From: a virus
Taxonomy: Duplodnaviria; Heunggongvirae; Uroviricota; Caudoviricetes
Virus record (IMG/VR): IMGVR_UViG_3300028995_000083
Location: 1-16,929 of that record
DNA: 16,929 bases
Reading direction: 5' to 3' (one strand)
Part shown: piece by piece, positions 1,054 to 15,995 of the stretch
Numbering within the stretch: the stretch's first letter is position 1
How the letters are laid out: the number at the start of each line of letters is the position of its first letter
Notes under the pieces: generated by a model
What the model was told of the DNA's origin: nothing
The model's database searches: none
The model's input: the letters and a program-made list of their open reading frames with translations, nothing else
Made by a program: the position numbers and the translations under genes

Positions 1054-1241
1054 AAAAAATGCCCTCCAATAGAGAGCATTTTTACTGTATGTATAACCAG
1101 TGTCAATGTATGAAATCCTGCGACCATACATCTCACTGAAGCCATAATGAAGTAGGCTATTCTTTTTGCTATGTGATCATGTAACTTTTGCGGTTAACCT
1201 GTGGCTCATTTTTATTTTAGGCGCAGATATAAAAGCAAAAG

Positions 1242-1433
1242 TTATCGTGAGTTTTTAGTACAGATTTTTTTGGATTTACTAATAGTTCCATCATTGCAAA
1301 CGAATTTGCCATCAGAGGTACAGTGAGAAACACCTCCCTTTTTCCCTGAGCAGGGATAATTTCTAGCATAGGTAGCTAGTGGGTTTAATAACAAAGAACA
1401 TGACAAAACCACAAAAAATACCTTACCAAGCAT
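1242..1433 (-). CDS. Small secreted or lipoprotein-like cysteine-rich protein (63 aa), putative moron in the cI-int operon
   Basis: GGGAGG RBS 5 nt before the ATG; hydrophobic N-terminal signal-like segment ([23 protein letters not shown]) then a Lys/Cys-rich mature part with 4 Cys; AT-rich relative to int and cI; same strand, between cI and int. Confidence 0.55.
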
Positions 1434-1448
1434 AATTTCCTCCCGGTA

Positions 1449-2024
1449 CTATTTAACATACTTGACTGTTAAACTTATAATTTTACCAATTATTTCAATG
1501 TCTTCTATCTTACATTCAAAGGCTCTGTTTCCACCCTCGACGAAGATTCTTCCACCGGGTAAACGAGTAATGTCACGGATCGTTATTTCGCCATCAATAC
1601 TTATTACCCATTTACCATCACGTATATCATCAAATTCCTTATCACAAATAAATTCAGAATTATTATCTGTGATTACAAAAAGATTCTTGAATGCCGACGG
1701 TAGAAATTCTCTATCGAAAATATAAAAACCGTCTTCACACAAGGCCCCATCAGATAATACATATTTAGCAACTTCCATAGTATTTGTATTACCTGAAGTT
1801 TGCTTTGAACCATGCCCGGTTGTGAGCCAATTAAGCGAGGTGCCTGTTTCAAGGGCGCACTGGATTACCCATTCTGCTGGGAATGAGTCACGCATGTAGC
1901 GTGTGGCGAGTGTACTTTTAGAGATTCCTAAATGATCGCACAACGCCTGTCGAGTCTTGAATCCATAAGCTTCTACCATGCGCTCTATGGCGCCTCGTCC
2001 GCCTTTCTCCAAATTCATGGTCAC
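1449..2024 (-). CDS. cI: CI-type immunity repressor (186 CI-like, HTH N-terminal domain)
   Basis: 191 aa, close to the size of phage 186 CI; N-terminal HTH-like segment (FKTRQALCDHLGISKSTLATRYMRD); located between int and the divergent early operon; GGAG RBS. Confidence 0.8.
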   Translation of the reverse strand: MTMNLEKGGRGAIERMVEAYGFKTRQALCDHLGISKSTLATRYMRDSFPAEWVIQCALETGTSLNWLTTGHGSKQTSGNTNTMEVAKYVLSDGALCEDGFYIFDREFLPSAFKNLFVITDNNSEFICDKEFDDIRDGKWVISIDGEITIRDITRLPGGRIFVEGGNRAFECKIEDIEIIGKIISLTVKYVK

Positions 2025-2071: not shown

Positions 2072-2143
2072 TATGGTGTTCACAAAATACAAACGATCCG
2101 TATTCGTCCTGATTAATCATCATTAAACGAGGAATGTTGCATC

Positions 2144-2365
2144 ATGAGACCTAACATTTCAATCACTCTTACCACGCCTCATGTGACTATTGAACGCTAT
2201 AGCGAGCTGACAGGGCTATCCATCGATACCATCAATGACATGTTGGCTGATGGACGCCTTATCCGTCACCGTCTGCGCAAAGATAAAAAACGCGAAAAAG
2301 TGATGATCAACATAGCAGCAATGACCGTTGATGCGCTTTCAGAATGCAATCTAAACCTTAATTAG
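2144..2365 (+). CDS. Apl/Cox-like small DNA-binding protein (excisionase / repressor of lysogenic promoter)
   Basis: 73-aa basic protein, first gene of the rightward early operon, divergent from cI; position and size match 186 Apl / P2 Cox. Family assignment is by synteny, not motif. Confidence 0.6.
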
Positions 2366-2397
2366 TTCGATTCTGAAATACATCAGAGGCATTGACC

Positions 2398-2907
2398 ATG
2401 TTTGATTACCAAGTTTCCAAACATCCACATTTTGATGAAGCCTGTCGTGCATTTGCACTGCGCCACAATCTGGTGCAACTGGCAGAACGTGCAGGCATGA
2501 ATGTGCAGATTCTGCGGAACAAGCTGAACCCAGCTCAGCCTCATTTATTAACCGCACCAGAAATCTGGCTGCTTACCGATCTGACTGAAGATTCAACGCT
2601 GGTAGATGGTTTTCTGGCACAGATTCATTGTCTGCCATGTGTACCGATTAATGAGGTGGCAAAAGAGAAACTGCCACATTACGTCATGAGTGCAACCGCA
2701 GAGATCGGGCGTGTTGCTGCAGGTGCGGTGTCTGGCGATGTAAAAACCTGTGCCGGTCGTCGTGATGCTATCAGCAGCATTAACTCTGTAACACGACTGA
2801 TGGCGCTGGCGGCTGTTTCATTGCAGGCCCGTTTACAGGCTAATCCTGCGATGGCGAGTGCAGTTGATACCGTGACTGGCCTCGGTGCTTCATTTGGTTT
2901 GCTGTGA
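2398..2907 (+). CDS. cII: CII-type phage regulatory protein (186 CII-like)
   Basis: 169 aa from ATG 2398 (AGAGG RBS 9 nt upstream; the TTG at 2392 in the ORF track is too close to the RBS); N-terminus [45 protein letters not shown] resembles the Phage_CII family; immediately after apl as in 186. Confidence 0.8.
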
Positions 2908-2914
2908 GGTGCTT

Positions 2915-3115
2915 ATGCTGACGAAAGAACCATCATTTGCATCGCTGCTGGTTAAACAAAGCCCGGCAATGCATTACGGCCACGGCTGGATCATGGGGGA
3001 GGATGGTAAACGCTGGCATCCGTGCCGTTCACAAGATGAATTGCTGGCAGAACTATCTACGAAAAAACGGGGGAACAAATGGCTATTGAAGGCACTGCGG
3101 CGACTGTTCCATTAA
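2915..3115 (+). CDS. Hypothetical small phage protein (at the position of fil in 186)
   Basis: 66-aa ORF from ATG 2915 with GAGG RBS; the GTG at 2885 overlaps cII and has no RBS. Function inferred from position only. Confidence 0.5.
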   Translation: MLTKEPSFASLLVKQSPAMHYGHGWIMGEDGKRWHPCRSQDELLAELSTKKRGNKWLLKALRRLFH

Positions 3116-3948: not shown

Positions 3949-4802
3949 GCACCATCCTGAAATGGGCGGGAAATAAAACTGCCATAATGTCCGAACTGAA
4001 AAAACATCTTCCTGCTGGCCCGCGACTGGTTGAACCTTTCGCGGGTTCCTGTGCTGTGATGATGGAGACGGATTATCCCAGCTATCTGGTTGCGGATATT
4101 AATCCTGATTTAATCAACCTCTATAAAAAGGTTGCCGCTGATTGTGAATCGTTTATATCTCGCGCCAGAGTTTTATTTGAGATCGCAAACAGGGAGGTGG
4201 CTTATTACAACATAAGGCAGGAGTTTAATTACTCAACTGAAATTACTGATTTCATGAAAGCGGTATATTTCCTGTATCTCAATCGTCACGGTTACCGTGG
4301 TTTATGTCGCTATAACAAGAGCGGGCATTTCAACATTCCCTACGGTAATTATAAAAATCCGTATTTCCCTGAAAAAGAAATTCGCGCATTTGCAGAAAAG
4401 GCCCAGCGAGCAACGTTTATCTGCGCCAGCTTTGATGAAACGCTGGCGATGTTGAAGGCGGGGGATGTGGTGTATTGCGATCCGCCGTATGACGGTACGT
4501 TTTCCGGCTATCACACTGACGGCTTCACTGAAGATGACCAGTATCACCTGGCATCTGTTCTTGAACATCGGTCATCAGAAGGACATCCGGTCATTGTTTC
4601 TAACAGTGACACATCCCTGATCCGTTCGCTGTATCGCAATTTTACTCACCACTACATCAAGGCAAAACGCAGCATCGGTGTGGCAGCTGGCGAGGGTAAA
4701 TCAGCAACAGAAATCATTGCTGTTTCCGGGCCGCGCTGCTGGGTGGGATTTGATTATTCGCGTGGCGTGGATAGTTCTGCCGTGTACGGAGTACGTGCAT
4801 GA
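3945..4802 (+). CDS. dam: DNA adenine methyltransferase (Dam-like, N6-adenine MTase)
   Basis: 285 aa from ATG 3945 (GGAGGTG RBS). Motif I-like EPFAGSCAV near the N-terminus and catalytic DPPY ([12 protein letters not shown]); N-terminus [11 protein letters not shown] is typical of Dam-family enzymes. Confidence 0.9.
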
Positions 4803-7213
4803 GTCATGCCGATATGAACAACTGCTGCGGCTTTAACGAAGCTGCCGCATCGTTCTCATGGAACAGCTCGAAAAAGGCCATTAACCCTTATCTGGACCCG
4901 GTGGAAGTTGCGCCGGTTTCTACGCTTTCAAACCTGATCACTCTGTACGCTGCCGATAACGAGCAGGAACAGCTGCGCCGTGAGGCGCTGAGTGATCAGG
5001 TCTGGGAGCGTTATTTCTTTAATGAATCCCGTGATCCTGTCCAGCGCGAAATGGAACAGGATAAGCTCATTAGTCGGGCAAAGCTGGCGCATGAGCAGCA
5101 GCGTTTTAATCCGGATATGGTCATTCTGGCGGACGTCAACGCCCAGCCTTCCCATATCAGCAAGCCGCTGATGCAACGTATTGAATACTTCAGCAGCCTG
5201 GGCAGGCCAAAGGCTTATTCCCGCTATTTACGTGAGACGATTAAGCCATGTCTGGAACGACTGGAGCATGTACGCGACAGTCAGCTATCTGCATCTTTTC
5301 GCTTTATGGCAAGCCATGAAGGGCTGGACGGCCTGCTGATCCTGCCTGAAATGAGTCAGGATCAGGTGAAACGCCTGTCCACCCTGGTAGCTGCGCATAT
5401 GAGTATGTGCCTTGATGCCGCTTGTGGCGATTTGTATGCCACCGATGACGTTAAGCCAGAAGAAATCCGCAATACATGGGAAAGGGTGGCAGCGGAAACC
5501 CTGCGTCTGGATGTCATCCCGCCTGCGTTTGAGCAACTCCGTCGGAAAAGAAACCGCCGTAAACCCGTGCCCTATGAACTCATTCCGGGTTCGCTGGCGC
5601 GTATGTTGTGCGCCGACTGGTGGTATCGGAAATTATGGAAGATGCGTTGCGAATGGCGGGAAGAGCAGTTGCGTGCTGTCTGCCTTGTCAGCAAAAAAGC
5701 ATCTCCCTATGTCAGCTATGAAGCCGTGTTGCATAAACGTGAGCAGCGCCGTAAGTCGCTGGAGTTTTTCCGTTCTCATGAACTGGTGAACGAAGACGGC
5801 GACACGCTAGACATGGAGGATGTGGTAAACGCCAGCAGCAGCAACCCTGCGCATCGCCGCAATGAGATGATGGCCTGTGTTAAAGGTCTGGAGCTTATCG
5901 CGGAAATGCGCGGTGACTGCGCCGTTTTCTACACCATCACCTGTCCGTCACGTTTCCATTCCACGCTAAATAACGGCAGGCCCAACCCGACCTGGACAAA
6001 TGCGACGGTAAGACAAAGCAGCGATTATCTGGTCGGTATGTTTGCTGCATTTCGTAAGGCGATGCACAAAGCCGGGTTGCGCTGGTATGGCGTGCGGGTG
6101 GCTGAGCCGCATCACGACGGCACAGTTCACTGGCACCTGTTGTGTTTCATGCGCAAAAAAGACCGCCGCGCCATTACAGCATTGTTGCGTAAGTTTGCTA
6201 TCCGTGAAGACCGCGAGGAGCTGGGCAATAACACGGGGCCGCGCTTTAAGTCTGAGCTGATTAACCCGCGCAAAGGAACGCCGACAAGCTACATAGCGAA
6301 ATACATCAGTAAGAACATTGACGGGCGTGGTCTGGCTGGCGAGATCAGCAAGGAAACGGGTAAATCTCTGCGTGATAACGCTGAATACGTGAATGCCTGG
6401 GCGTCTTTGCATCGTGTTCAGCAATTCCGCTTCTTTGGCATTCCGGGGCGTCAGGCTTACCGTGAACTGCGATTGCTGGCTGGTCAGGCGGCAAGGCAAA
6501 AGGGGGACAAAAAAGCAGGTGCGCCGGTACTGGATAACCCGCGCCTTGATGCCATCCTGGCTGCTGCTGATGCTGGTTGTTTTGCCACCTACATCATGAA
6601 GCAGGGCGGCGTACTGGTTCCCCGTAAATATCACCTCATCAGAACCGCTTATGAAATCAACGAAGAGCCGACCGCCTATGGCGATCACGGCATTCGTATT
6701 TATGGCATCTGGTCACCCATTGCAGAGGGCAAGATCTGCACTCATGCAGTGAAGTGGAAAATGGTTCGTAAAGCCGTTGACGTTCAGGAGGCGGCAGCCG
6801 ACCAGGGCGCTTGCGCCCCTTGGACTCGTGGCAATAACTGTCCCCTTGCTGAAAATTTGTACCAACAAGGGAAAGACAAATCAGCTGATGGGGATACCAG
6901 AACGGATATTACCCGCATGGATGACAAGGAATTGCACGATTACCTGCACAGTATGAACAAAAAAGAGCGCCGGGAACTGGCTGCAAGGTTACGCCTGGTG
7001 AAACCGAAACGGCGTAAAGACTACAAACAGCGAATTACAGACCATCAGCGACAGCAGCTCGTCTATGAACTGAAGTCCAGAGGATTTGATGGCAGCGAGA
7101 AAGAGGTCGATTTACTCCTTCGCGGCGGCAGTATTCCGTCAGGAGCAGGCCTGCGTATCTTCTATCGGAACCAGCGTTTGCAGGAAGATGATAAGTGGCG
7201 AAACCTGTATTAA
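4799..7213 (+). CDS. Replication initiation endonuclease (P2/186 gene-A-like rolling-circle initiator)
   Basis: 804 aa; HUH-type motif ([10 protein letters not shown]) and a paired-tyrosine segment (YIAKYISKN) consistent with P2 gpA-family proteins; start overlaps the dam stop (ATGA). Confidence 0.9.
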
Positions 7214-7565: not shown

Positions 7566-7799
7566 ATGCGCATTGAAATAATGATCGATAAAGAGCAGAA
7601 GATTAGCCAGTCTACCCTGGACGCCCTTGAATCCGAGCTTTACCGCAATCTGCGTCCTCTGTATCCCAAAATGGTAATTCGTATCCGCAAAGGTAGCTCT
7701 AACGGTGTGGAACTGACCGGATTGCAACTGGACGAAGAAAGAAAACAAGTGATGAAAATTATGCAGAAGGTGTGGGAAGACGACAGCTGGCTGCATTAA
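7566..7799 (+). CDS. dinI: DinI-family protein (DNA-damage-inducible protein I-like)
   Basis: 77 aa; MRIEIMIDKEQKISQSTLDALESELYRNL...VWEDDSWLH parallels E. coli DinI in length and pattern (MRIEV...ETWE..DW); GAGGTG RBS; in the LexA-controlled transcription unit. Confidence 0.85.
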   Translation: MRIEIMIDKEQKISQSTLDALESELYRNLRPLYPKMVIRIRKGSSNGVELTGLQLDEERKQVMKIMQKVWEDDSWLH

Positions 7800-8069
7800 G
7801 AAACGTTGCTGGCGTCTGAACTTGCTTCTGGCGTCAGCAAGGTTGAACAACGAGCTATGCGAGGCGTTAGTGTCAATTTGTTACCTTAACCACTATATAT
7901 GCCAGGAAATTAACAGTTCTTAAGAAACAGCTTGCATGATCGAGCGCATTGAACTTAAGTTTAAGTAACGCAATCAACAGATGATATTGTTGTCTAAATT
8001 TTAAAGATAATCTGTTGAGGTTGTAGGCGTCGGAGTGTAGACTTCCGCGCCATGTGAAAAGGGGGAGTT

Positions 8070-8285
8070 ATGTCAAGCATCGCCGCATTTAGCCTGGGTA
8101 ACCCAGTTGAACGTCTGGCAAGGGTTCTTAAAGAGAACCAGGACAAACTCAATCTTAGTAAAGATGGTTTTGTGTCCGTAGACTTGTCTAACAAAAGAGC
8201 AATGGATGCCATCAAGGCACAGATGGATAAGCTTGAAGGCATCAAAACGAGCACTGTAAAAGAGAAAACTAATAGAACCAGATAA
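8070..8285 (+). CDS. Hypothetical small soluble protein (71 aa), first gene of cargo operon
   Basis: Strong RBS (AAAGGGGGAG) before ATG 8070; Lys-rich, no TM segment; stop overlaps the start of the next gene (TAATG); AT-rich. Confidence 0.6.
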   Translation: MSSIAAFSLGNPVERLARVLKENQDKLNLSKDGFVSVDLSNKRAMDAIKAQMDKLEGIKTSTVKEKTNRTR

Positions 8286-9127
8286 TGGCAACATTACTTT
8301 TAGCAGTGATTTTGGTTAGTGGTTTTATTTATGTAAACCTATCACTTTCAACAAGATACCGATATAAGCGTTCCAACGGCTGGGACGCTTATTTTTTTGT
8401 GGCTGCCTGGGGTATCGTTTTTTTTCTCCTTGGCGGTTTTTTCACCTTTATTTTGAACGTCAGCGGAGGGTTTCGTTGGCTGGCTAATGCCTTGAATCTA
8501 ACACCTGACAGTTTTAATGGCATGTTGTCTTCATCGAAAGACAAACTTCAAAGAATAAATGAAATCAAACAGATAGCATGGGTTATGATTTCAATTGTCC
8601 TCGCTGCGATTTCAGGTTTTGGAAATAAGTTACGCACATCACGTGGAGATCGTCGTTGGGATGCCTTAGCTAAAGCTGTGGGTAATAACGCTTTCGAATC
8701 ATTACTCATGGAAGCGTCCGCAAGACAGTTTCCGATCATAGCAACTCTGTCGTCTCGCAAAATCTATGTTGGTCTTGTTACTTGTCCGGCGTTAGAAAAC
8801 GGGCTTTCAGAGCACCTTGAACTTCTCCCGATGTTAAGCGGATATCGGGATAAAGATGATCTAACGATTAGTATCACGACTAACTATCACCAACATTATC
8901 TTGATAGTGGTGTGATAAGTGGAATGTCTCGGCTTAATATCGAAGATTTCCGTGTGCTCATACCAAAAGATGAGGTTGAAACAATTTCGTTTTTTGATAC
9001 TGAGACATATAACAAATTTAAAGAAAATGAAGCCAGGGATAGAAAGAACTGTCGAAAGATTGATAGTAAAAGTGCATCTTCGCGCAGCAAGCGTGCAGCA
9101 GATGCTGAGTCAAATGATCGTGCATGA
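8285..9127 (+). CDS. Hypothetical membrane protein (280 aa; three predicted N-terminal TM helices plus about 165-aa charged cytoplasmic domain)
   Basis: Hydrophobic segments at about residues 2-19, 36-57 and 96-112, then a soluble Lys/Arg/Asp-rich domain; translationally coupled to the 8070 gene; AT-rich; no family recognised. Confidence 0.7.
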   Translation: MATLLLAVILVSGFIYVNLSLSTRYRYKRSNGWDAYFFVAAWGIVFFLLGGFFTFILNVSGGFRWLANALNLTPDSFNGMLSSSKDKLQRINEIKQIAWVMISIVLAAISGFGNKLRTSRGDRRWDALAKAVGNNAFESLLMEASARQFPIIATLSSRKIYVGLVTCPALENGLSEHLELLPMLSGYRDKDDLTISITTNYHQHYLDSGVISGMSRLNIEDFRVLIPKDEVETISFFDTETYNKFKENEARDRKNCRKIDSKSASSRSKRAADAESNDRA

Positions 9128-9175
9128 CTATGCTGCATGAGATCGCATGATCGTTTGAGGATCGTTTTTGCTAGG

Positions 9176-9199
9176 GCCCGCCAGAACTGGCGGGCTTTC
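9176..9199 (+). terminator. Candidate intrinsic terminator after the two-gene cargo operon
   Basis: GC-rich hairpin GCCCGCCA-gaac-TGGCGGGC followed by only TTT; about 50 nt after the 9127 stop. The short T tract makes this tentative. Confidence 0.4.
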
Positions 9200-9364: not shown

Positions 9365-11038
9365 ATGGAAAAATATCAAGATGAGGAATATGTAGATGAT
9401 TTAACTGAGCGTGTTTTTCTCATTAAGCAACAACTGGAAGCGGGAAAACTAAAAATAGCTCATCATCTTGTAGAAGGTTTTATTGAAAGTTTTAAAAGAA
9501 TAAGGCTGCGACAGGATGGTAAAGTTGACCCTTCTACTGTTGATGGCAGAATAAGGGCTATGGGAGCAGCGGTTAATCACTTTTTAGAAAGAGAAGATAT
9601 AAAAAACAAATACTCTATTCAGGACTTGCAAAGTTCTTACTTTAATATTCTTTTTAGTAATTTTGGCGAGTTGTTTTATCTGATGAAAAAAACTAATGCA
9701 ACGCCACATAAAGCATCAAGTTTTTTTTCTCAACAAGAAGAATATGTTAAGCAAATAGAAGATATTTTTCCTGAGTTATATAATCAGGTAATAGAGTTTT
9801 GGCAGGTAACATCCGATATTGGTGTAATACATTTGCAGGATGGTTCTCAGTTTAAAGCTAATTTTTCTGGTGACTTATTTCCTGCATTTGATGAGAATGC
9901 TGTCTCTATTGCAGGGTTGTATGTTGATACTATTTCACTTCCATGTCCTATATTAAGAGTCGGTCGTCTCTATGAAAAGTCAGATAAGGCTGAGTTTACA
10001 AGGATACTTCTGAAGCATGTCCTAACATGTATGACATATAAAGAAGTAGCGCTTGAAGATATAGAGCCAGCAATAGTATTAATTTTGCCGGATAGAAGAG
10101 ATTTTGAAACTGAGAGCAAAAAAAATTTGATGAGTTTTTGTGAGCCTTATGCTCTGACTCATGCGCAATATCTCTATGATCGACGGTTCGAAAGCTACGA
10201 TGAATTTCGAGATTTTAGTTATTCGATGAATGATATTGATGCTGTTCTTAAAAATATTAAGAGAGCAGATAGACTTATTTTTGATACAGCATGGGGGCTA
10301 AATCCAAAAACTCAATTAGAAAAACTACTATCTGATAAAAAAAGAATATCACGTAATGTTGTTGGTGATCATGCTGGAATGGAGGTTTTCCTTTCCTGCA
10401 TTGGAAGAATGCCGCAAGCCTATTCAGCAAAATGTAATGCACAAGAACTTGGTAGTACTCCATATATAAATGCAGACACATCTTGGCTCTATTATACTTG
10501 GCTTATTGAGTACGAATCTCTTAATTTTGATGTCAATGATATTGAACTAAAAAATTTGCATATGGTTCATGCGTTATCTGCTGGTATGCAAGATGGTTTT
10601 TCATGGTTAGGAAATGTACCGGTCAATAAAATAATTGAGTTGAGACGTAACAAATTGATGGAGGATGTAAGATCCATCTTATCAAATGGTGTTGACTCTT
10701 TAATCAATTCTTCGGCAGAGAGCTTTTCGAGGACAACGCAAAAAGTAATTGATAATGTAGACCGGGCTTTTATTGAACATCAAAGGATTCTTGCAAAAGC
10801 CCAAAAAGAGAAATTGAGAATTTACGGACTAGATGTCCTACCATGTATCGCAAATGGTGCTATAGCAATTGCTGGAGCGCTGACTGGCAATACTACTTTA
10901 ACGGCGTTAAGTGCAGGCCTTGGAGTAATAGGTATTCCGAGTATTAGTGATATCAAATCTAAATTTAAGCAGAGGCAAGAGAAGCTTGATGCCTATCAAC
11001 GTTCTGTTACAGGTATACTCTTTAGCCATAAATCTTAA
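9365..11038 (+). CDS. Hypothetical 557-aa protein with C-terminal glycine-zipper-like hydrophobic segment; candidate defense / abortive-infection effector
   Basis: Long uninterrupted AT-rich ORF with TGGAG RBS; no Walker A, no RT YxDD, no HTH recognised; hydrophobic Gly/Ala-rich stretch at residues about 486-524 (LDVLPCIANGAIAIAGALTGNTTLTALSAGLGVIGIPSI); PD...ESK string at residues 242-252; flanked by terminator-like hairpins. Confidence 0.75.
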   Translation: MEKYQDEEYVDDLTERVFLIKQQLEAGKLKIAHHLVEGFIESFKRIRLRQDGKVDPSTVDGRIRAMGAAVNHFLEREDIKNKYSIQDLQSSYFNILFSNFGELFYLMKKTNATPHKASSFFSQQEEYVKQIEDIFPELYNQVIEFWQVTSDIGVIHLQDGSQFKANFSGDLFPAFDENAVSIAGLYVDTISLPCPILRVGRLYEKSDKAEFTRILLKHVLTCMTYKEVALEDIEPAIVLILPDRRDFETESKKNLMSFCEPYALTHAQYLYDRRFESYDEFRDFSYSMNDIDAVLKNIKRADRLIFDTAWGLNPKTQLEKLLSDKKRISRNVVGDHAGMEVFLSCIGRMPQAYSAKCNAQELGSTPYINADTSWLYYTWLIEYESLNFDVNDIELKNLHMVHALSAGMQDGFSWLGNVPVNKIIELRRNKLMEDVRSILSNGVDSLINSSAESFSRTTQKVIDNVDRAFIEHQRILAKAQKEKLRIYGLDVLPCIANGAIAIAGALTGNTTLTALSAGLGVIGIPSISDIKSKFKQRQEKLDAYQRSVTGILFSHKS

Positions 11039-11043
11039 TGTAG

Positions 11044-11074
11044 AGGGCCGAGGTATTCGGCCCTTAGTTTTATA
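11044..11074 (+). terminator. Intrinsic terminator after the 557-aa gene
   Basis: Hairpin AGGGCCG-aggtatt-CGGCCCT followed by T-rich TAGTTTTATAT, 6 nt after the stop codon. Confidence 0.6.
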
Positions 11075-11220
11075 TGAAACTGTATGGCATGAATTTTATT
11101 ATGTCATCTTTGAGCCATTTATTGAGTTCTTCTATTCTGTTTTGTAGCGGTATCAATTCATTACGCATAAAAACCTTACTAGCCTTCTCCACATCCCCAA
11201 ATCCCCCAACATTATTCGGC

Positions 11221-12186
11221 ATTATCCCCATCATTTGCGGCGGCACTCGGTGTGCTGCCATCATGTCATCCCGGCTCACGTTCTTGATAGGTCTTGTGGT
11301 TACTGCACTGGCGGGTGTGGCGCTGGTTGTCTGGAAATACTGGCAGCCCATCACCGCATTTCTCGGTGGCGTGGTGGAAGGATTCAAAGCGGCGGCAGGT
11401 CCTGTCAGTGCCGCGTTCGAACCGCTTAAGCCTGTGTTCCAGTGGATTGGCGACAAAGTACAGGCGCTGTGGGGCTGGTTTACTGATCTGCTGACGCCCG
11501 TTAAGTCGACCTCTGCCGAACTGCAGAGTGCAGCGGCAATGGGGCGACGATTCGGGGAGGCTCTGGCGGAAGGGCTGAATATGGTCATGCATCCGCTGGA
11601 CTCCCTGAAATCCGGCGTTTCCTGGTTGCTGGAGAAACTTGGCATTGTCAGTAAAGAGGCCGCAAAGGCGAAACTGCCGGAAAGCGTGACGCGTCAGCAA
11701 CCTGCGACGGTGAATGCAGACGGTAAAGTGATGATGCCATCGGGTGGTTTTCCGTCATGGGGATATGGCTTTGCGGGGATGTATGACAGCGGCGGGTATA
11801 TCCCGCGCGGGCAGTTTGGCATCGTCGGTGAAAACGGGCCGGAAATTGTTAACGGCCCGGCAAATGTGACCAGCCGGAGAAATACAGCTGCACTGGCTGC
11901 CGTTGTTGCCGGAATGATGGGTGTTGCTGCTACGCCAGCAGAGCTTCCACCGTTGCACCCTTTGGCACTTCCCGCGAAAGGCGGTGAAGCGATGGTGAGT
12001 CGTGCAGCCACTGTGCTGCCCGTTCAACGGATTGAGGCACCGATGCAGATCATCATTCAGACGCAGCCAGGACAAAGTGCGCAGGATATTGCGCGGGAGG
12101 TGGCCCGCCAGCTTGATGAACGTGAACGCAGGCTGAAGGCAAAAGCCAGGAGTAACTACAGCGATCAGGGGGGATACGACGCATGA
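11221..12186 (+). pseudogene. 5'-truncated tail tape-measure gene (P2 gpT / 186 G-like), C-terminal fragment only
   Basis: Translation from about residue 50 of the 11074 ORF onward is Ala/Gly-rich with tape-measure character (AFLGGVVEGFKAAAGPVSAAFEPLKPVFQWIGDKVQALWGW...) and is followed by U and D as in the P2 FETUD operon; upstream 150 nt is AT-rich with no RBS; a full tape measure would be about 800 aa. 5' boundary approximate. Confidence 0.7.
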
Positions 12187-12668
12187 TGATGGTGCTGGGA
12201 TTGTACGTGTTTATGCTGCGCACCGTGCCGTATCAGGAGCTGCAGTATCAACGCAGCTGGCGACATGCGGCAAACAGCCGGGTAAACCGACGCCCGTCAA
12301 CGCAGTTTCTGGGACCGGACAACGACATGCTGACGCTTTCTGGTGTTCTTATGCCGGAGGTAACGGGCGGCAGGCTGTCGTTGCTGGCTCTGGAGCAGAT
12401 GGCAGAACAGGGAAAAGCATGGCCCCTGATTGAAGGCAGCGGCACGATTTACGGCATGTATGTGATTGAGGGACTGAATCAGACTAAAACGGAGTTTTTC
12501 CGCGACGGTATGCCGCGCCGGATTGAGTTCACCCTGTCGCTAAAACGCGTGGATGAATCCCTGTCCGATATGTTCGGTGATCTCAGTGCGCAACTGAATA
12601 ATCTGCAGGGAACGGCAACATCTGCCTTAAGCGATATCAGTAAAACGGTGGGAGGGCTGCTGTCGTGA
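12183..12668 (+). CDS. U: Tail protein U (P2 gpU-like)
   Basis: 161 aa, start overlaps the tape-measure stop (ATGA); size and position between T and D match P2 gpU. Confidence 0.85.
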   Translation: MMMVLGLYVFMLRTVPYQELQYQRSWRHAANSRVNRRPSTQFLGPDNDMLTLSGVLMPEVTGGRLSLLALEQMAEQGKAWPLIEGSGTIYGMYVIEGLNQTKTEFFRDGMPRRIEFTLSLKRVDESLSDMFGDLSAQLNNLQGTATSALSDISKTVGGLLS

Positions 12669-13765
12669 ATTTCAGCTCTGAACTGCTTAACAAAGGCAAC
12701 AAAACTCCGGCATTCAGCATCAGTATTGAAGGCAGGGATATCACCACTGTGCTGGACAACCGCCTGATGGGGCTGACGCTGACGGATAACCGGGGCTTTG
12801 AAGCGGACCAGCTTGATCTGGAGCTGGACGACGCCGATGGAAAAATCGTGCTGCCGCGCCGTGGGGCTGTCATTACGCTGGCGCTGGGCTGGAAGGGACA
12901 GCCGCTTTTCCCGAAAGGGGCATTCACGGTGGACGAGATTGAACACACTGGCGCACCGGATCGCCTGACTATCCGGGCGCGAAGTGCTGATTTTCGTGAA
13001 ACGCTGAATACCCGCCGTGAAAAGTCGTGGCACAAGACCACCGTTGGGGAAGTGGTGAAGGAAATAGCTGCGCGGCACAAACTGAAGATGGCATTGGGTG
13101 AAGACTTGTCGGATAAACTCGTGGAGCATATAGACCAGACTAATGAGAGTGACGGCAGTTTTTTGATGCGGCTGGCGCGCCAGTACGGTGCTATTGCGTC
13201 GGTGAAAAATGGCAATCTGTTATTCATCCGGCAGGGGCAGGGTAAAAGCGCCAGCGGTAAACCACTACCGGTGATCACTATCACACGCAAGGACGGCGAC
13301 AGTCACCGCTTTACCCTGGCAGATCGCGGAGCTTACACGGGCGTCATTGCCAGCTGGTTGCATACCCGCGAACCCGCGAAGAAAGAAAGCACCACGGTGA
13401 AGCGTAAGCGCAGGACTAAGAAGCAGAAGAAAGAGCCGGAAGCGAAGCAGGGCGATTACCTGGTGGGTACGGATGAAAACGTGCTGGTACTTAATCGCAC
13501 TTATGCCAACCGGAGCAACGCCGAACGGGCAGCGAAAATGCAGTGGGAACGCCTGCAACGCGGCGTTGCATCATTCTCGCTACAACTGGCGGAAGGGCGG
13601 GCAGATCTCTACACAGAAATGCCTGTGAAGGTCAGTGGCTTTAAACAGCCGATAGATGATGCGGAATGGACCATTACGACTCTGACGCATACCGTCAGCC
13701 CGGATTACGGTTTTACGACCAGTCTGGAGCTTGAAGTGAGGATTGATGATTTCGAAATGGAATGA
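12665..13765 (+). CDS. D: Tail protein D (P2 gpD-like, late control gene D family)
   Basis: 366 aa; GTG start overlapping the U stop, GGGAGGG RBS; size, position (last late gene before ogr) and composition consistent with Phage_GPD. Confidence 0.85.
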   Translation: MNFSSELLNKGNKTPAFSISIEGRDITTVLDNRLMGLTLTDNRGFEADQLDLELDDADGKIVLPRRGAVITLALGWKGQPLFPKGAFTVDEIEHTGAPDRLTIRARSADFRETLNTRREKSWHKTTVGEVVKEIAARHKLKMALGEDLSDKLVEHIDQTNESDGSFLMRLARQYGAIASVKNGNLLFIRQGQGKSASGKPLPVITITRKDGDSHRFTLADRGAYTGVIASWLHTREPAKKESTTVKRKRRTKKQKKEPEAKQGDYLVGTDENVLVLNRTYANRSNAERAAKMQWERLQRGVASFSLQLAEGRADLYTEMPVKVSGFKQPIDDAEWTITTLTHTVSPDYGFTTSLELEVRIDDFEME

Positions 13766-13855
13766 TTCTTCGCAATGGAGAACTTTTAAGTTTGCAAAAT
13801 GGAATAATGCGGTATCATTATTGTGAATTTAGCAAAAATGGGGAGAACTCGAAAA

Positions 13856-14074
13856 ATGATGATTTGCCCACTGTGTGGAAGTGCCGCCCATACTCGCAGC
13901 AGTTTTCAGGTATCTTCATTGACCAAAGAGCGTTACAACCAGTGCCAGAACATTAACTGCAGCCATACTTTTGTTACCCATGAAACTTTTGTTCGTTCGA
14001 TTGCAACGCCAAAAGAGTCAAATCCGGTTCAGCCGCATCCAATGAAATCAGGACAGGTGGCGCTCTCTCTTTGA
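13856..14074 (+). CDS. ogr: Ogr/Delta-family zinc-finger late transcription activator
   Basis: 72 aa from ATG 13856, the same length as P2 Ogr; CPLC...CQNINC matches the Ogr C-x2-C-x22-C-x4-C zinc-binding pattern (compare P2 Ogr CPLCQHAAH...YHQCQNVNC). Confidence 0.85.
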   Translation: MMICPLCGSAAHTRSSFQVSSLTKERYNQCQNINCSHTFVTHETFVRSIATPKESNPVQPHPMKSGQVALSL

Positions 14075-14309: not shown

Positions 14310-15995
14310 TTATCCTAATCCTGGCCATACCATGACGATGATTGTCCCTGCCAGCGTCAGCAGGACGTTGGCGATTGCGTAGGTGCCCGCGTAGCCCAGC
14401 GCAGGGATGTTACTGCGAGCTGTATCACTGATGATCTCCATTGCCGGCGCGCAGGTGCGTGCGCCCATCATTGCGCCGAACAACAGTGCGCGGTTCATTC
14501 GCAATACATAAGCACCGAACAAGAAACAGATAACCACGGGCACAAGACTGACAATTAATCCGGCAATCAACATCTGACCGCCAATCGCGCCCAGGCCGTT
14601 ATTAATACCGCTACCGGCGCTCAGACCAACGCCTGCCATAAACACCATCAAGCCGAACTCTTTCACCATGCTTAATGCACCTTGCGGAATGTAACCGAAG
14701 GTCGGGTGGTTAGCACGCATAAAGCCCAGCATAATTCCGGCGAATAACAACCCGGCAGCGTTCCCCATGCCGAAACTGAATGTGCTGAACTGGAAGGTGA
14801 TCATCCCGATCATCAGCCCAATAACAAAGAAGGCGCAAAATGCCAGCAGGTCAGTGACCTGGCTGTGAATCGAGATAAAGCCGATGCGATCGGCGATGGT
14901 TTTTACGCGACGGGCATCACCGCTGACTTGTAAAACGTCACCTTTGTTAAGCACGACGTTGTCATCTATCGGCATCTCAATCTGGCTACGAATGACGCGG
15001 TTAAGGAAGCAACCGTGATCGGTCAACTTCAGTTGTGCGAGACGTTTACCTACAGCGTTATGGTTTTTAACGACCACTTCTTCAGTGACGATACGCATGT
15101 CGAGAAGGTCACGATCGAAAACTTCTTTACCGTTACGGAAGCTGGGATCGAGTCGGGCATGGGCGTCGGGATAGCCTACCAACGCTATTTCATCGCCCAT
15201 TTGTAGCACGGCATCACCGTCTGGATTTGCCAGAATCCCGTTACGTCGAATACGTTCAATGTAGCAGCCGGTTTGTCGATAAATACCCAGTTCACGCAGA
15301 TTTTTGCCGTCGGTCCAGGCCACCAGCTCCGGGCCGACGCGATAGGCGCGGATCACCGGTAAATAAACCTTACGGTTGGCATCAGTGTCCAGGCCACGTT
15401 CGCGGGCGATTTGCTGGGCGCTGGTCTGTAAGTCCTGATGCTGCAATTTCGGCAAGTAACGCGCACCAACAATCAAACTCACCAGACCGATTAAATAGGT
15501 TAAGGCATACCCGAGGCTCAGATTATCCAGTGCCAGTGAGAGCTGCCTGCTTTCCATGCCGGAATGACGCAGTGTATCGCCAGCACCGACCAGAACCGGT
15601 GTCGACGTCATAGAGCCTGCTAACATACCGGCCGTCAGGCCAATATCCCAGCCAAACAGCTTACCTAACCCTAAGGCGATCACCAGCGCACTGCCAACCA
15701 TCACCAGTGCTAACATTAGGTAATTTTTCCCATCGCGAAAAAAAATGGAAAAAAAGTTCGGTCCGGCTTCGACCCCGACGCAGAAAATAAACAGCATAAA
15801 GCCAAGATTAAGCGCATCGGTGTTAATGCTGAAATGTTGTTGGCCTAATAACAGCGATACGACTAAAACGCCAATGGAATTACCCAGTTGGATCGAACCA
15901 AGTCGTAACTTTCCGAGACATAGCCCAAGCGCGAGGACCACAAATAATAACAGAATGTAATTCCCATTTAACAATTCGGCGACGTTTATATTCAC
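14310..15995 (-). CDS. ybjL: Putative transport protein YbjL (AAE-family membrane transporter)
   Basis: 561-aa product [39 protein letters not shown]... recognised as E. coli YbjL; membrane domains flank a central soluble region; GTG start as given by the ORF track. Confidence 0.9.

What the first reader, a model, noticed from the sequence alone, without database searches (positions are those of the whole stretch)
8070..9127. Translationally coupled pair: 71-aa soluble protein and 280-aa three-TM membrane protein
The stop of the first gene overlaps the start of the second (TAATG), implying stoichiometric co-expression. The second protein has three N-terminal hydrophobic helices and a highly charged cytoplasmic C-terminal domain. 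A membrane protein paired with a small partner fits a sensor/effector or toxin/antidote-like unit that could depolarise or permeabilise the membrane on infection. The operon has its own strong RBS and a downstream hairpin, so it looks like an independent unit from the 557-aa gene.
Basis: inference. Interest (0 to 1): 0.75.

Follow-up and report, generated by a model that had tools for sequence, protein, structure and literature searches.

The report
Prophage small-protein plus membrane-protein cassette
A real, widely conserved but uncharacterised two-gene unit, carried in the variable "defence hotspot" of a P2-like prophage, encodes a tiny soluble protein and a three-helix inner-membrane protein with an Sm-like domain; it is a plausible new phage-exclusion module, but its function is untested.

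Summary
ORFs 8070-8285 (71 aa) and 8285-9127 (280 aa) overlap in TAATG. The 280-aa protein has three hydrophobic helices, and both genes are under purifying selection.

The pair is a self-contained cassette (~7872-9117) in the gpA-gpQ hotspot of a defective P2/186-like prophage. It occurs in 52 of 5,426 complete E. coli genomes with changing neighbours (SieB, TIR systems, the 557-aa gene, or none). It also sits at other moron sites of temperate phages.

The membrane protein belongs to a large unnamed family: 2,910 clusters at 50% identity, with no Pfam, PADLOC or NCBIfam hit and only sub-threshold hits to DUF6338. A small ORF lies directly upstream in 83 loci.

New here: a terminator-like hairpin plus T7 run inside the membrane gene (8364-8398). 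It is conserved in 15 distinct homologues with compensatory changes. It argues against simple stoichiometric co-expression.

Best reading (about 0.45, inferred): a phage-exclusion or abortive-infection module with a membrane effector and a small regulator. No experiment supports this, and distant relatives sit in fixed chromosomal loci.

The parts
7872..8069 (+). Cassette-specific leader, about 200 nt. Contains a palindrome (7949-7964), a 15-nt inverted repeat (7974-7988 / 8004-8018) and the Shine-Dalgarno AAGGGGGAG (8059-8067). No consensus sigma-70 promoter was called.
   Evidence: The left homology break against a prophage lacking the pair falls after ...GCGAGGCGTTAG. The leader is conserved in the Klebsiella-phage, Serratia and Enterobacteriaceae cassettes. 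Repeats. Promoter scan negative on the + strand here.
8070..8285 (+). Small gene: 71-aa basic, soluble protein (WP_000094764; phrog_9843). Predicted as helix, beta-hairpin, helix.
8283..8287 (+). TAATG stop/start overlap (translational coupling junction).
   Evidence: Sequence. The same 1-nt overlap occurs in 26 of 83 loci; 39 of 83 overlap by 1-13 nt.
8285..9127 (+). Large gene: 280-aa inner-membrane protein (WP_021556032; phrog_3630).
   Evidence: ORF. PHROG hit 8.8e-99, function unknown. No Pfam, PADLOC or NCBIfam family. dN/dS 0.03-0.05. AF2 model pLDDT 78.5.
8288..8344 (+). TM helix 1 (aa 2-20).
   Evidence: Hydropathy peak 2.2; model helix 2-19.
8364..8398 (+). Intragenic intrinsic-terminator-like element: 12-bp stem (8364-8375 / 8381-8392), 5-nt loop, T7 run (8392-8398). 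It overlaps the codons for the conserved loop YKRSNGWDAYFF.
   Evidence: Found by the terminator scan. dG -16.4 kcal/mol, z -3.2. Conserved in 15 distinct homologues with compensatory changes. It is the only consensus structure RNAalifold predicts in a 196-nt stretch. Synonymous-recoding test. Codon identity 82% in the hairpin against 39% elsewhere.
8387..8455 (+). TM helix 2 (aa 35-57).
   Evidence: Hydropathy peak 2.3; model helix 33-60.
8567..8623 (+). TM helix 3 (aa 95-113).
   Evidence: Hydropathy peak 1.8; model helix 87-119.
8690..8995 (+). Cytoplasmic Sm-like (LSm-fold) domain, aa ~136-237, with the invariant loop motif LLP.LSGYRDKD.
8999..9124 (+). C-terminal helix and variable, highly charged tail (aa 239-280).
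   Evidence: Not conserved in alignment A1. 10 K/R and 5 D/E in aa 251-280. pLDDT 57 at the end.
9173..9198 (+). GC-rich hairpin downstream of the pair. It belongs to the prophage backbone, not to the cassette.
   Evidence: -27.5 kcal/mol, z -4.1. Present in the H2-type prophage that lacks the pair. Not called as a terminator because only UUU follows it.

Best explanation
The pair is an autonomous two-gene accessory ('moron') cassette carried by temperate phages. Here it sits in the gpA-gpQ defence hotspot of a defective P2/186-like prophage.

Shown:
- The pair is conserved and translationally coupled.
- The large product has three predicted TM helices in an N-out/C-in topology, with a conserved cytoplasmic loop.
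- It has a predicted cytoplasmic Sm-like barrel.
- A conserved terminator-like hairpin lies early in the membrane gene.

Inferred:
- The membrane protein oligomerises through its Sm-like domain, as Sm proteins form rings. It acts as the effector of a phage-exclusion (abortive-infection type) module by compromising the inner membrane.
- The small basic protein binds its cytoplasmic face and acts as its regulator, antidote or sensor.
- The intragenic hairpin attenuates transcription unless a ribosome follows closely. This keeps the membrane protein sub-stoichiometric to its partner.
For: Location: the window is a P2/186-like prophage, and the pair lies between gpA/DinI and the portal gene. This locus was shown experimentally to be a reservoir of anti-phage systems (PMC9122126).

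Modularity:
- The cassette 7872-9127 is found at >=80% coverage in 52 of 5,426 complete E. coli genomes (50 records at >=99% identity).
- Its downstream neighbours vary: SieB, a hypothetical gene plus TIR, a 69-aa gene plus TIR, the 557-aa gene, or none.
- Relatives occupy other moron sites: a lambdoid tail cluster, the nin region next to hok, and the repressor-proximal end of P2-like phages.

Pair conservation. Co-divergence of the two proteins gives rho 0.63.

Fold: 3 TM helices plus an Sm-like domain. The cytoplasmic motifs are invariant, while the periplasmic loop and the tail are variable.

Evolutionary signal: at a fixed locus in the P. fluorescens group the pair is only 49-73% identical while flanking genes are 91-99% identical.

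Hairpin.
Against: - No experiment exists for this pair. It appears only as 'hypothetical + hypothetical' in Rousset Table S5A, and neither sequence occurs in the stored Table S5B of 169 curated systems.
- No PADLOC, Pfam or NCBIfam model matches.
- Many distant relatives are syntenic chromosomal genes flanked by housekeeping genes in Pseudomonas, Vibrio and Photorhabdus. This suggests a cellular role.
- Oligomerisation, pore formation, binding of the small protein and termination at the hairpin are all untested.
- No promoter was identified.
- The model's pTM is only 0.58.
Confidence: 0.45

Rival explanations
1. Superinfection exclusion without cell death. The membrane protein sits in the inner membrane and blocks genome entry of incoming phages, as known prophage Sie proteins do. 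The small protein is an assembly or regulatory partner.
For: It is an inner-membrane moron in temperate phages. It is found inside tail-gene clusters of lambdoid prophages, a site where HK97 gp15 is known to lie (own knowledge). It also lies next to a SieB-family gene in many E. coli. The periplasmic loop between TM2 and TM3 is the most variable part, in both length and sequence, which fits specificity for incoming phage proteins.
Against: The most conserved parts are cytoplasmic (loop 1 and the Sm-like domain with SGYRDKD), not periplasmic. There is no similarity to the SieA, SieB, Imm or gp15 families in Pfam. A strictly conserved cytoplasmic partner and an attenuator fit control of a dangerous protein better.
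Confidence: 0.15
2. A toxin-antitoxin-like addiction module. The membrane protein is a toxin and the small upstream protein its antitoxin. The pair stabilises the prophage or chromosomal islet rather than defending against phages.
For: The layout is that of a small upstream gene overlapping a larger downstream gene. It occurs as isolated two-gene islets between housekeeping genes and next to hok in one prophage. The membrane gene is split while the small ORF stays intact in 4 loci: L014, L017, L021, L031. The attenuator would keep the putative toxin below the antitoxin.
Against: No known TA family matches. Two of the four broken copies are in a genome-decaying symbiont lineage. Toxicity is untested. 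The small protein has no recognisable DNA-binding fold.
Confidence: 0.15
3. A cellular membrane function that phages merely borrow. Examples are a small channel with MscS-like architecture, a membrane-tethered RNA- or ligand-binding Sm protein, or an envelope-stress factor. It would have no direct role in phage conflict.
For: Distant branches are syntenic across many species of the Pseudomonas oryzihabitans and fluorescens groups, Vibrio and Photorhabdus, between housekeeping genes. In the P. oryzihabitans group the pair is 93-100% conserved. The architecture and topology (3 TM, N-out, followed by a cytoplasmic Sm-like barrel) parallel MscS (own knowledge of MscS).
Against: There is no sequence relationship to MscS (hhalign probability 0.1%) or to Pfam MS_channel, LSM, Hfq or NfeD models. 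The close relatives of the window's pair are almost all in prophage variable regions. In-situ divergence is fast in the P. fluorescens group, and identity across Photorhabdus species is unusually high relative to the flanks.
Confidence: 0.2
4. Chance ORFs or mis-called genes with no function.
For: Database names are empty or spurious ('multidrug ABC transporter ATPase', 'HrcA', 'YobD').
Against: Both genes are under purifying selection. The family has thousands of clusters. The pair architecture is conserved. The fold is predicted with confidence.
Confidence: 0.01

Closest known systems
Lambda RexA/RexB and analogous prophage two-gene exclusion systems (e.g. mycobacteriophage Sbash gp30/gp31, Butters gp30/gp31); own knowledge
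   Same: A prophage-borne two-gene unit made of a soluble protein and a polytopic inner-membrane protein. It is located in an accessory or moron region and is proposed to act at the membrane on superinfection.
   Different: No sequence or model similarity (PADLOC and Pfam negative). There are three TM helices plus an Sm-like cytoplasmic domain rather than a four-TM channel. The partner is only 71 aa. No phenotype is known.
Sm/LSm/Hfq fold proteins
   Different: No Pfam LSM or Hfq hit and only 11-20% identity. The domain is fused to three TM helices. Ring formation and RNA binding are untested.
MscS mechanosensitive channel (own knowledge: three TM helices, N-out, followed by an Sm-like beta domain, heptamer)
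   Same: Same order of parts and the same predicted topology.
Pfam DUF6338 (PF19865), an uncharacterised membrane-protein family
   Same: Three distant family members give weak hits (E 5.7e-5 to 2.2e-4), covering the N-terminal membrane part and beyond.
   Different: The one hit whose score was shown is below the Pfam gathering score (21.3 against 26.5 bits). The window protein and most relatives give no hit. DUF6338 has no known function, and no paper discusses it functionally.
Hotspot systems with TM effectors validated by Rousset et al. 2022 (Hydrolase+3TM in P4; 2TM+1TM+TIR of phage AC1 in P2)
   Same: Same type of locus (cos-proximal hotspot) and TM proteins proposed as effectors.
   Different: The proteins are different: the AC1 insert and the Hydrolase+3TM sequences do not match, and there is no PADLOC hit. 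The pair itself was not among the systems tested.
Prophage superinfection-exclusion membrane proteins (P22 SieA/SieB, HK97 gp15, T4 Imm); own knowledge, and PMC10883804 listed
   Same: Small inner-membrane morons of temperate phages. A SieB-family gene is often the immediate neighbour.
   Different: No homology. Those act as single proteins. Here the conserved surface is cytoplasmic and a partner is always present.

Membership tests
Known anti-phage defence systems (PADLOC-DB v2.0.0) | Significant match of either protein to a defence-system HMM | tested here: not met
   Small protein: 0 families. Large protein: only a 0.14 E-value hit to an amino-acid transporter model.
Anti-phage hotspot cargo of P2-like phages (Rousset 2022) | Located between the replication gene gpA and the portal gene gpQ of a P2-like prophage, as a variable cassette | tested here: met
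   gpA is at 4799-7213 (Pfam Phage_GPA). The portal gene follows in the intact relative L001. The accessions are listed in Table S5A of PMC9122126. The cassette is present or absent among related prophages.
Anti-phage hotspot cargo of P2-like phages (Rousset 2022) | Demonstrated protection against phages | not testable with these tools
   Neither sequence is found in the stored copy of the 169 curated systems. No paper mentions the accessions or PHROG ids.
Sm/LSm/Hfq | Sm fold (N-terminal helix plus a strongly bent five-stranded sheet) | tested here: met
Sm/LSm/Hfq | Sm1/Sm2 sequence motifs (match to Pfam LSM or Hfq models) | tested here: not met
   No such hit for the window protein, 10 distant relatives or 50 family members.
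Sm/LSm/Hfq | Hexameric or heptameric ring and RNA binding | not testable with these tools
MscS channels | Sequence or profile similarity to MscS (Pfam MS_channel domains) | tested here: not met
No Pfam hit.
MscS channels | Three TM helices (N-out) followed by a cytoplasmic Sm-like beta domain | tested here: met
   This is a resemblance of architecture only.
Pfam DUF6338 (PF19865) | Score above the Pfam gathering threshold | tested here: inconclusive
   The window protein gives no hit. L066 scores 21.3 bits against a cut-off of 26.5. 2 of 50 family members hit, best E 5.7e-5.
Type II toxin-antitoxin modules | Small upstream gene overlapping a downstream gene in one operon | tested here: met
   TAATG overlap, conserved across loci.
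Type II toxin-antitoxin modules | Membership of a known toxin or antitoxin family; a DNA-binding antitoxin fold | tested here: not met
   No Pfam hits for 11 small proteins. The AF2 model has no fold match.
Type II toxin-antitoxin modules | Toxicity of the downstream product, neutralised by the upstream product | not testable with these tools
   Requires expression experiments.
Class I holins | About 100 aa with three TM helices (N-out/C-in) and a charged tail, encoded in the lysis cassette | tested here: not met
   The topology and charged tail resemble a holin. However, the protein is 280 aa with a globular domain. It lies outside the lysis cassette, which has its own HP1-family holin in the intact relative.
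Intrinsic (Rho-independent) terminators / attenuators | GC-containing stem-loop immediately followed by a U-tract, conserved with covariation | tested here: met
   12-bp stem, 5-nt loop, U7. 91.7% of cells are paired, against 30-48% when the partner is slid. 2 pairs show compensatory changes. RNAalifold finds it independently.
Intrinsic (Rho-independent) terminators / attenuators | Actual transcript 3' end at the U-tract | not testable with these tools
   Needs Term-seq, 3' RACE or Northern analysis. No Rfam family matches.

The most novel reading that the evidence does not exclude
The pair founds a new, widespread class of anti-phage (or membrane-signalling) system. In this reading, a membrane-anchored Sm-fold protein assembles into a ring-shaped, gated inner-membrane complex that senses a cytoplasmic ligand or nucleic acid through its invariant SGYRDKD loop. 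It is held in check by a dedicated 50-90-aa partner. Its synthesis is licensed by a ribosome-dependent intragenic attenuator written into the codons of a conserved protein loop.
Probability: 0.2. Interest if true: 0.8.

Novelty: new variant of a known kind. Interest (0 to 1): 0.6.

Why it matters
If the cassette excludes phages, it would add an unrelated protein family to the repertoire of prophage-encoded membrane-acting defences. The family is large (about 2,900 clusters at 50% identity) and is spread across Gamma-, Beta- and Alphaproteobacteria and Acidobacteria.

It would also give the first function to a membrane-tethered Sm-fold protein and to relatives of DUF6338.

The conserved terminator-like hairpin embedded in coding sequence is a concrete, testable example of dual coding. 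Its compensatory substitutions change amino acids. It could explain how a potentially harmful membrane protein is kept below its partner.

If the cassette has no phage phenotype, it remains a well-defined, compact unknown carried by about 1% of complete E. coli genomes and many other enterobacteria.

Tried and rejected
- Pfam, NCBIfam and PADLOC scans of both proteins gave no family. PHROGs gave only 'unknown function' families.
- A profile search of PDB sequences found nothing.
- The AFDB Foldseek library was unavailable. BFVD gave only small Sm-like or uncharacterised viral proteins.
- hhalign against MscS was negative.
- Pfam on ten divergent small partners, to test an AbrB/MazE-like idea prompted by the VVGRGTV.ID motif, gave nothing. 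That idea was dropped.
- Literature searches for the accessions, PHROG ids, DUF6338, and Sm-like plus transmembrane plus anti-phage found nothing relevant. One search was wasted on an ambiguous term.
- The phage AC1 '2TM+1TM+TIR' system was considered as the identity of the pair and rejected, because the sequences differ.
- No sigma-70 promoter could be assigned in the leader.
- Rfam has no match.
- A holin reading was rejected on size and location.
Full report
**Observation**

The window carries two + strand ORFs at exactly the stated coordinates: 8070-8285 (71 aa) and 8285-9127 (280 aa). The TAA stop of the first shares its last base with the ATG of the second, giving TAATG at 8283-8287. A strong Shine-Dalgarno AAGGGGGAG (8059-8067) precedes the first gene. 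None is visible before the second.

Kyte-Doolittle analysis gives three hydrophobic segments (aa ~2-20, 35-57, 95-113). The K/R-rich loops after TM1 (4 K/R in 14 residues) and after TM3 indicate an N-out/C-in topology. The 71-aa protein is basic and has no hydrophobic segment.

Both genes are under purifying selection. Against cassettes from a Klebsiella phage, Serratia and an Enterobacteriaceae isolate, dN/dS is 0.18-0.22 for the small gene and 0.03-0.05 for the large gene.

**Genomic setting**

The window is a P2/186-like prophage:
- integrase at 1-1131 (by similarity to the annotated integrase of L001);
- CI repressor at 1449-2024;
- replication protein gpA at 4799-7213, and a DinI-like gene at 7566-7799.

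An almost identical intact prophage in E. coli 210221272 (L001) continues with portal, terminase and capsid genes. The pair therefore lies in the gpA-gpQ locus. Rousset et al. 2022 (PMC9122126) showed this locus to be a hotspot of anti-phage systems (the old/tin locus of P2).

Their Table S5A lists both accessions (WP_000094764 + WP_021556032) only as 'hypothetical + hypothetical', beside SieB, PIN_12 or other hypothetical genes. Neither sequence occurs in the stored copy of their table of 169 curated systems. The neighbouring 557-aa protein is there as stand-alone system 79 ('2 TM', 49 occurrences).

**Cassette limits and independence**

I aligned the window against a prophage that has the 557-aa gene but lacks the pair (L002). 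Homology breaks just after the DinI gene (~7871) and resumes at ~9118. The mobile unit is therefore ~7872-9117: a ~200-nt leader plus the two genes.

The leader is conserved in the Klebsiella-phage, Serratia and Enterobacteriaceae versions. It holds a palindrome and a 15-nt inverted repeat. No consensus sigma-70 promoter is called in it.

It belongs to the backbone shared with prophages that lack the pair, and only three U follow it.

The cassette is found at >=80% coverage in 52 of 5,426 complete E. coli genomes (50 records at >=99% identity). The downstream neighbour changes:
- a SieB-family gene;
- a hypothetical gene plus a TIR gene;
- a 69-aa gene plus a TIR gene in Klebsiella phage ST15-OXA48phi14.1;
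- the 557-aa gene, here and in L001;
- nothing, in Salmonella phage SEN5 and a Pectobacterium prophage.

**Distribution**

The 280-aa protein has 57 clusters at 90% identity in Enterobacterales, Aeromonas, Shewanella and others, all unnamed or spuriously named. A profile search of 1.84 billion representatives gives 2,910 clusters at 50% identity with E<=1e-3, and 2,037 with E<=1e-10. Among the 150 best hits listed, most are 240-300 aa.

A scan of one genome per species returned 80 loci. These span Gamma-, Beta- and Alphaproteobacteria and Acidobacteria.

Close relatives sit in temperate-phage variable regions of several kinds:
- the P2 hotspot;
- the repressor-proximal end of P2-like phages in Shewanella and Pseudoalteromonas phage C5a;
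- between tail genes K and I of a lambdoid prophage in Enterobacter, and between L and K in Nicoletella;
- the nin region beside a hok gene in an E. coli lambdoid prophage.

Distant relatives are different. In the Pseudomonas oryzihabitans and fluorescens groups, the Vibrio jasicida group and Photorhabdus, the pair sits at a fixed locus. There it lies between housekeeping genes such as an aminotransferase, an OYE oxidoreductase, an outer-membrane protein, a glutamate symporter and a multicopper oxidase.

Even at those fixed loci the evolutionary tempo is odd. In the P. fluorescens group the pair is 49-73% identical while its flanks are 91-99% identical. In Photorhabdus the pair (97-99%) is more conserved than its flank (87-90%).

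**The small partner**

In 83 loci a same-strand small ORF ends at or near the start of the membrane gene. In 39 loci stop and start overlap, 26 of them by exactly one base, and most of the rest are within 15 nt. One caveat is that I picked the in-frame start codon nearest the stop.

Iterative HMM searches gather the partners into two groups of 32 and 42 loci. hhalign joins them weakly but in the expected register (E 2.3e-4, probability 44%). Most of the remaining ten loci carry a small ORF with the same pattern: a helix, a G-containing beta-hairpin ending in D/N, then an amphipathic helix.

Pairwise identities of partner and membrane protein co-vary (Spearman 0.63). The AF2 model of the 71-aa protein has modest confidence (pLDDT 69) and shows helix 12-22, a short hairpin and helix 42-61. 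It has no fold match.

**Fold of the membrane protein**

AF2 with 25 homologues gives pLDDT 78.5 and pTM 0.58. It predicts three long helices, then two short helices, a six-strand barrel region (150-236) and a long C-terminal helix.

The family's invariant residues cluster in two places: cytoplasmic loop 1 (R29, G32, Y36) and the Sm-like domain (K159, Y161, G163, P182, S185-G186-Y187-R188-D189). The periplasmic TM2-TM3 loop and the charged tail vary in length and sequence.

By sequence the family matches nothing defined:
- no Pfam, NCBIfam or PADLOC family;
- no PDB sequence;
- sub-threshold hits to DUF6338 for only 3 distant members;
- PHROGs places both proteins in 'unknown function' families.

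The order 'three TM helices (N-out), then Sm-like barrel' recalls MscS (my own knowledge). There is no profile similarity, however (hhalign probability 0.1%), so I treat this as an analogy only.

The terminator scan flags 8364-8392 inside the membrane gene. It has a 12-bp stem and a 5-nt loop, followed by a run of seven T. Its free energy is -16.4 kcal/mol, z -3.2. It is written over the codons for YKRSNGWDAYFF, the conserved loop between TM1 and TM2.

The same hairpin and T-run are present in 15 distinct homologues down to ~33-46% protein identity. These come from P2-like, SEN5-like and two kinds of lambdoid prophages.

Substitutions are compensatory and even change amino acids:
- Pectobacterium: CGT>CGC paired with GAC(D)>AGC(S);
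- Erwinia: CGC paired with GGC(G);
- Aeromonas: TCC(S)>GCA(A) paired with GAC(D)>CAC(H).

On the 14-sequence alignment, 91.7% of cells pair, against 30-48% when the partner column is slid. Two pairs carry double-sided changes, and none of 500 shuffles reach the observed covariation.

RNAalifold on a 196-nt stretch predicts this hairpin and nothing else. Native sequences fall in the best 0.3-4.5% of synonymous recodings in 13 of 14 cases. At identical amino acids, codons are identical in 82% of hairpin positions against 39% elsewhere. The pooled Fisher p of 8e-13 comes from non-independent comparisons, but the effect appears in every pair.

DNA identity to the Klebsiella and Serratia cassettes peaks at 94-95% in 8300-8399, against 69-83% across the rest of the large gene. 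Vibrio, Photobacterium, Shewanella and Pseudomonas relatives lack the hairpin. Rfam has no match.

I infer an attenuator. Without a closely following ribosome, transcription would stop after the small gene and 38 codons of the membrane gene. The membrane protein would then be kept below its partner. That conflicts with 'stoichiometric co-expression'. Actual termination is untested.

**Mechanism**

Shown:
- a conserved, coupled, mobile two-gene cassette in a validated defence hotspot;
- a predicted 3-TM protein with a cytoplasmic Sm-like domain;
- a co-evolving small partner;
- a conserved intragenic hairpin.

Inferred:
- the membrane protein oligomerises through the Sm-like domain and is the effector of a phage-exclusion or abortive-infection module;
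- the small protein binds its conserved cytoplasmic face as a regulator or antidote;
- the hairpin sets the ratio of the two proteins.

I put this at about 0.45. The rivals are:
- an entry-blocking superinfection-exclusion protein (0.15);
- a toxin-antitoxin addiction module (0.15);
- a cellular membrane function borrowed by phages, suggested by the syntenic chromosomal branches (0.2);
- chance ORFs (0.01, refuted).

**Comparison and novelty**

Functionally the nearest known things are prophage two-gene exclusion systems with a membrane component: lambda RexAB and mycobacteriophage Sbash or Butters gp30/31 (own knowledge). The TM-effector systems of the P2 and P4 hotspots are also close. Structurally the nearest are Sm/LSm proteins and, by architecture, MscS. 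By sequence only DUF6338 comes near, weakly.

No membership test based on sequence is met. I found no publication on the family. I therefore rate it a new variant of a known kind. It would work like a sensor-or-antidote plus membrane-effector unit but is built from unrelated parts.

Interest is 0.6. It is a solid, widespread candidate with an unusual fold combination and a dual-coding RNA element, but it has no functional data.

Noticed in passing
window 8364-8398: A conserved intrinsic-terminator-like hairpin plus T7 run inside the 280-aa gene. Its compensatory substitutions alter amino acids. Synonymous sites are far more conserved here (82% codon identity) than in the rest of the gene (39%).
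   Followed up: yes
window 11289 onward (11074-13956): The prophage is defective. Identity to the intact relative L001 ends at 11289, inside the 3' end of the portal gene. The sequence then jumps to the C-terminal part of the tape-measure gene, followed by gpU (12183-12668), gpD (12665-13765) and an ogr-sized ORF (13762-13956; assigned from the P2 gene order, no Pfam hit). Host genes come next: an Asp-Al_Ex/TrkA_C permease at 14310-15995, ybjM and glutaredoxin. All head genes and most tail genes are deleted, yet the hotspot cargo is retained. The 370-aa ORF at 11074-12186 is a junction chimera.
   Followed up: partly
window 9365-11038: The 557-aa neighbour (WP_024235280) is a separate hotspot cargo. 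It is stand-alone system 79 ('2 TM', 49 occurrences) in Rousset 2022 Table S5B. It has no Pfam, PHROG or NCBIfam family and only weak PADLOC hits to DitB (7e-10) and LeoBC (0.005). Its region has the lowest G+C in the window (0.33-0.37). A terminator-like hairpin follows at 11043-11065.
   Followed up: partly
window 8070-8285 and public records: The 71-aa protein is named 'multidrug ABC transporter ATPase' or 'YobD' in many NCBI and UniRef records, and a Photorhabdus homologue of the 280-aa protein is named 'HrcA'. None of these names has any support from domain searches; they look like propagated mis-annotations.
   Followed up: yes
window 8070-9127 vs L003/L006: Synonymous divergence is uneven within the cassette. 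dS is ~0.46-0.49 in the small gene against ~1.9-2.4 in the large gene for the same pairs. DNA identity is 0.82-0.95 across 8100-8400, peaking at 0.94-0.95 in 8300-8399. This points either to a recombination mosaic or to a wider nucleotide-level constraint around the gene junction.
   Followed up: partly
window 7949-8018: The leader contains a palindrome TTGAACTTAAG/CTTAAGTTTAA (7949-7964) and a 15-nt inverted repeat (7974-7988 / 8004-8018, 87% complementary). The palindrome and the outer CAACAG/CTGTTG arms are conserved in the Klebsiella-phage cassette. They are candidates for an operator or a 5'-UTR structure.
   Followed up: partly
L038, L041, L062, L068, L077, L081 (Pseudomonas fluorescens group); L022, L025, L026, L033 (Photorhabdus): At a fixed chromosomal locus the pair diverges much faster than its flanks in P. 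fluorescens-group species (49-73% against 91-99%). In Photorhabdus species it is more conserved than its flank (97-99% against 87-90%). This hints at allelic turnover or horizontal replacement in place.
   Followed up: partly
L003 4853-6492; L092 5083-6102: Two different TIR-domain systems (69 aa + 477-aa TIR; 138 aa + 200-aa TIR) lie immediately downstream of the pair, in a Klebsiella phage and in E. coli O157:H16. This may be simple stacking of systems in the hotspot, or a functional link; I did not resolve which.
   Followed up: no
L001 606-2282 vs window 1131-1449: The intact relative carries a DUF4041-domain gene (558 aa) between the integrase and CI genes that the window lacks. The CI region itself is not matched between the two, and the segment just downstream (window 2130-3046) is about 90% identical. 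This is a second variable site in this phage lineage.
   Followed up: no
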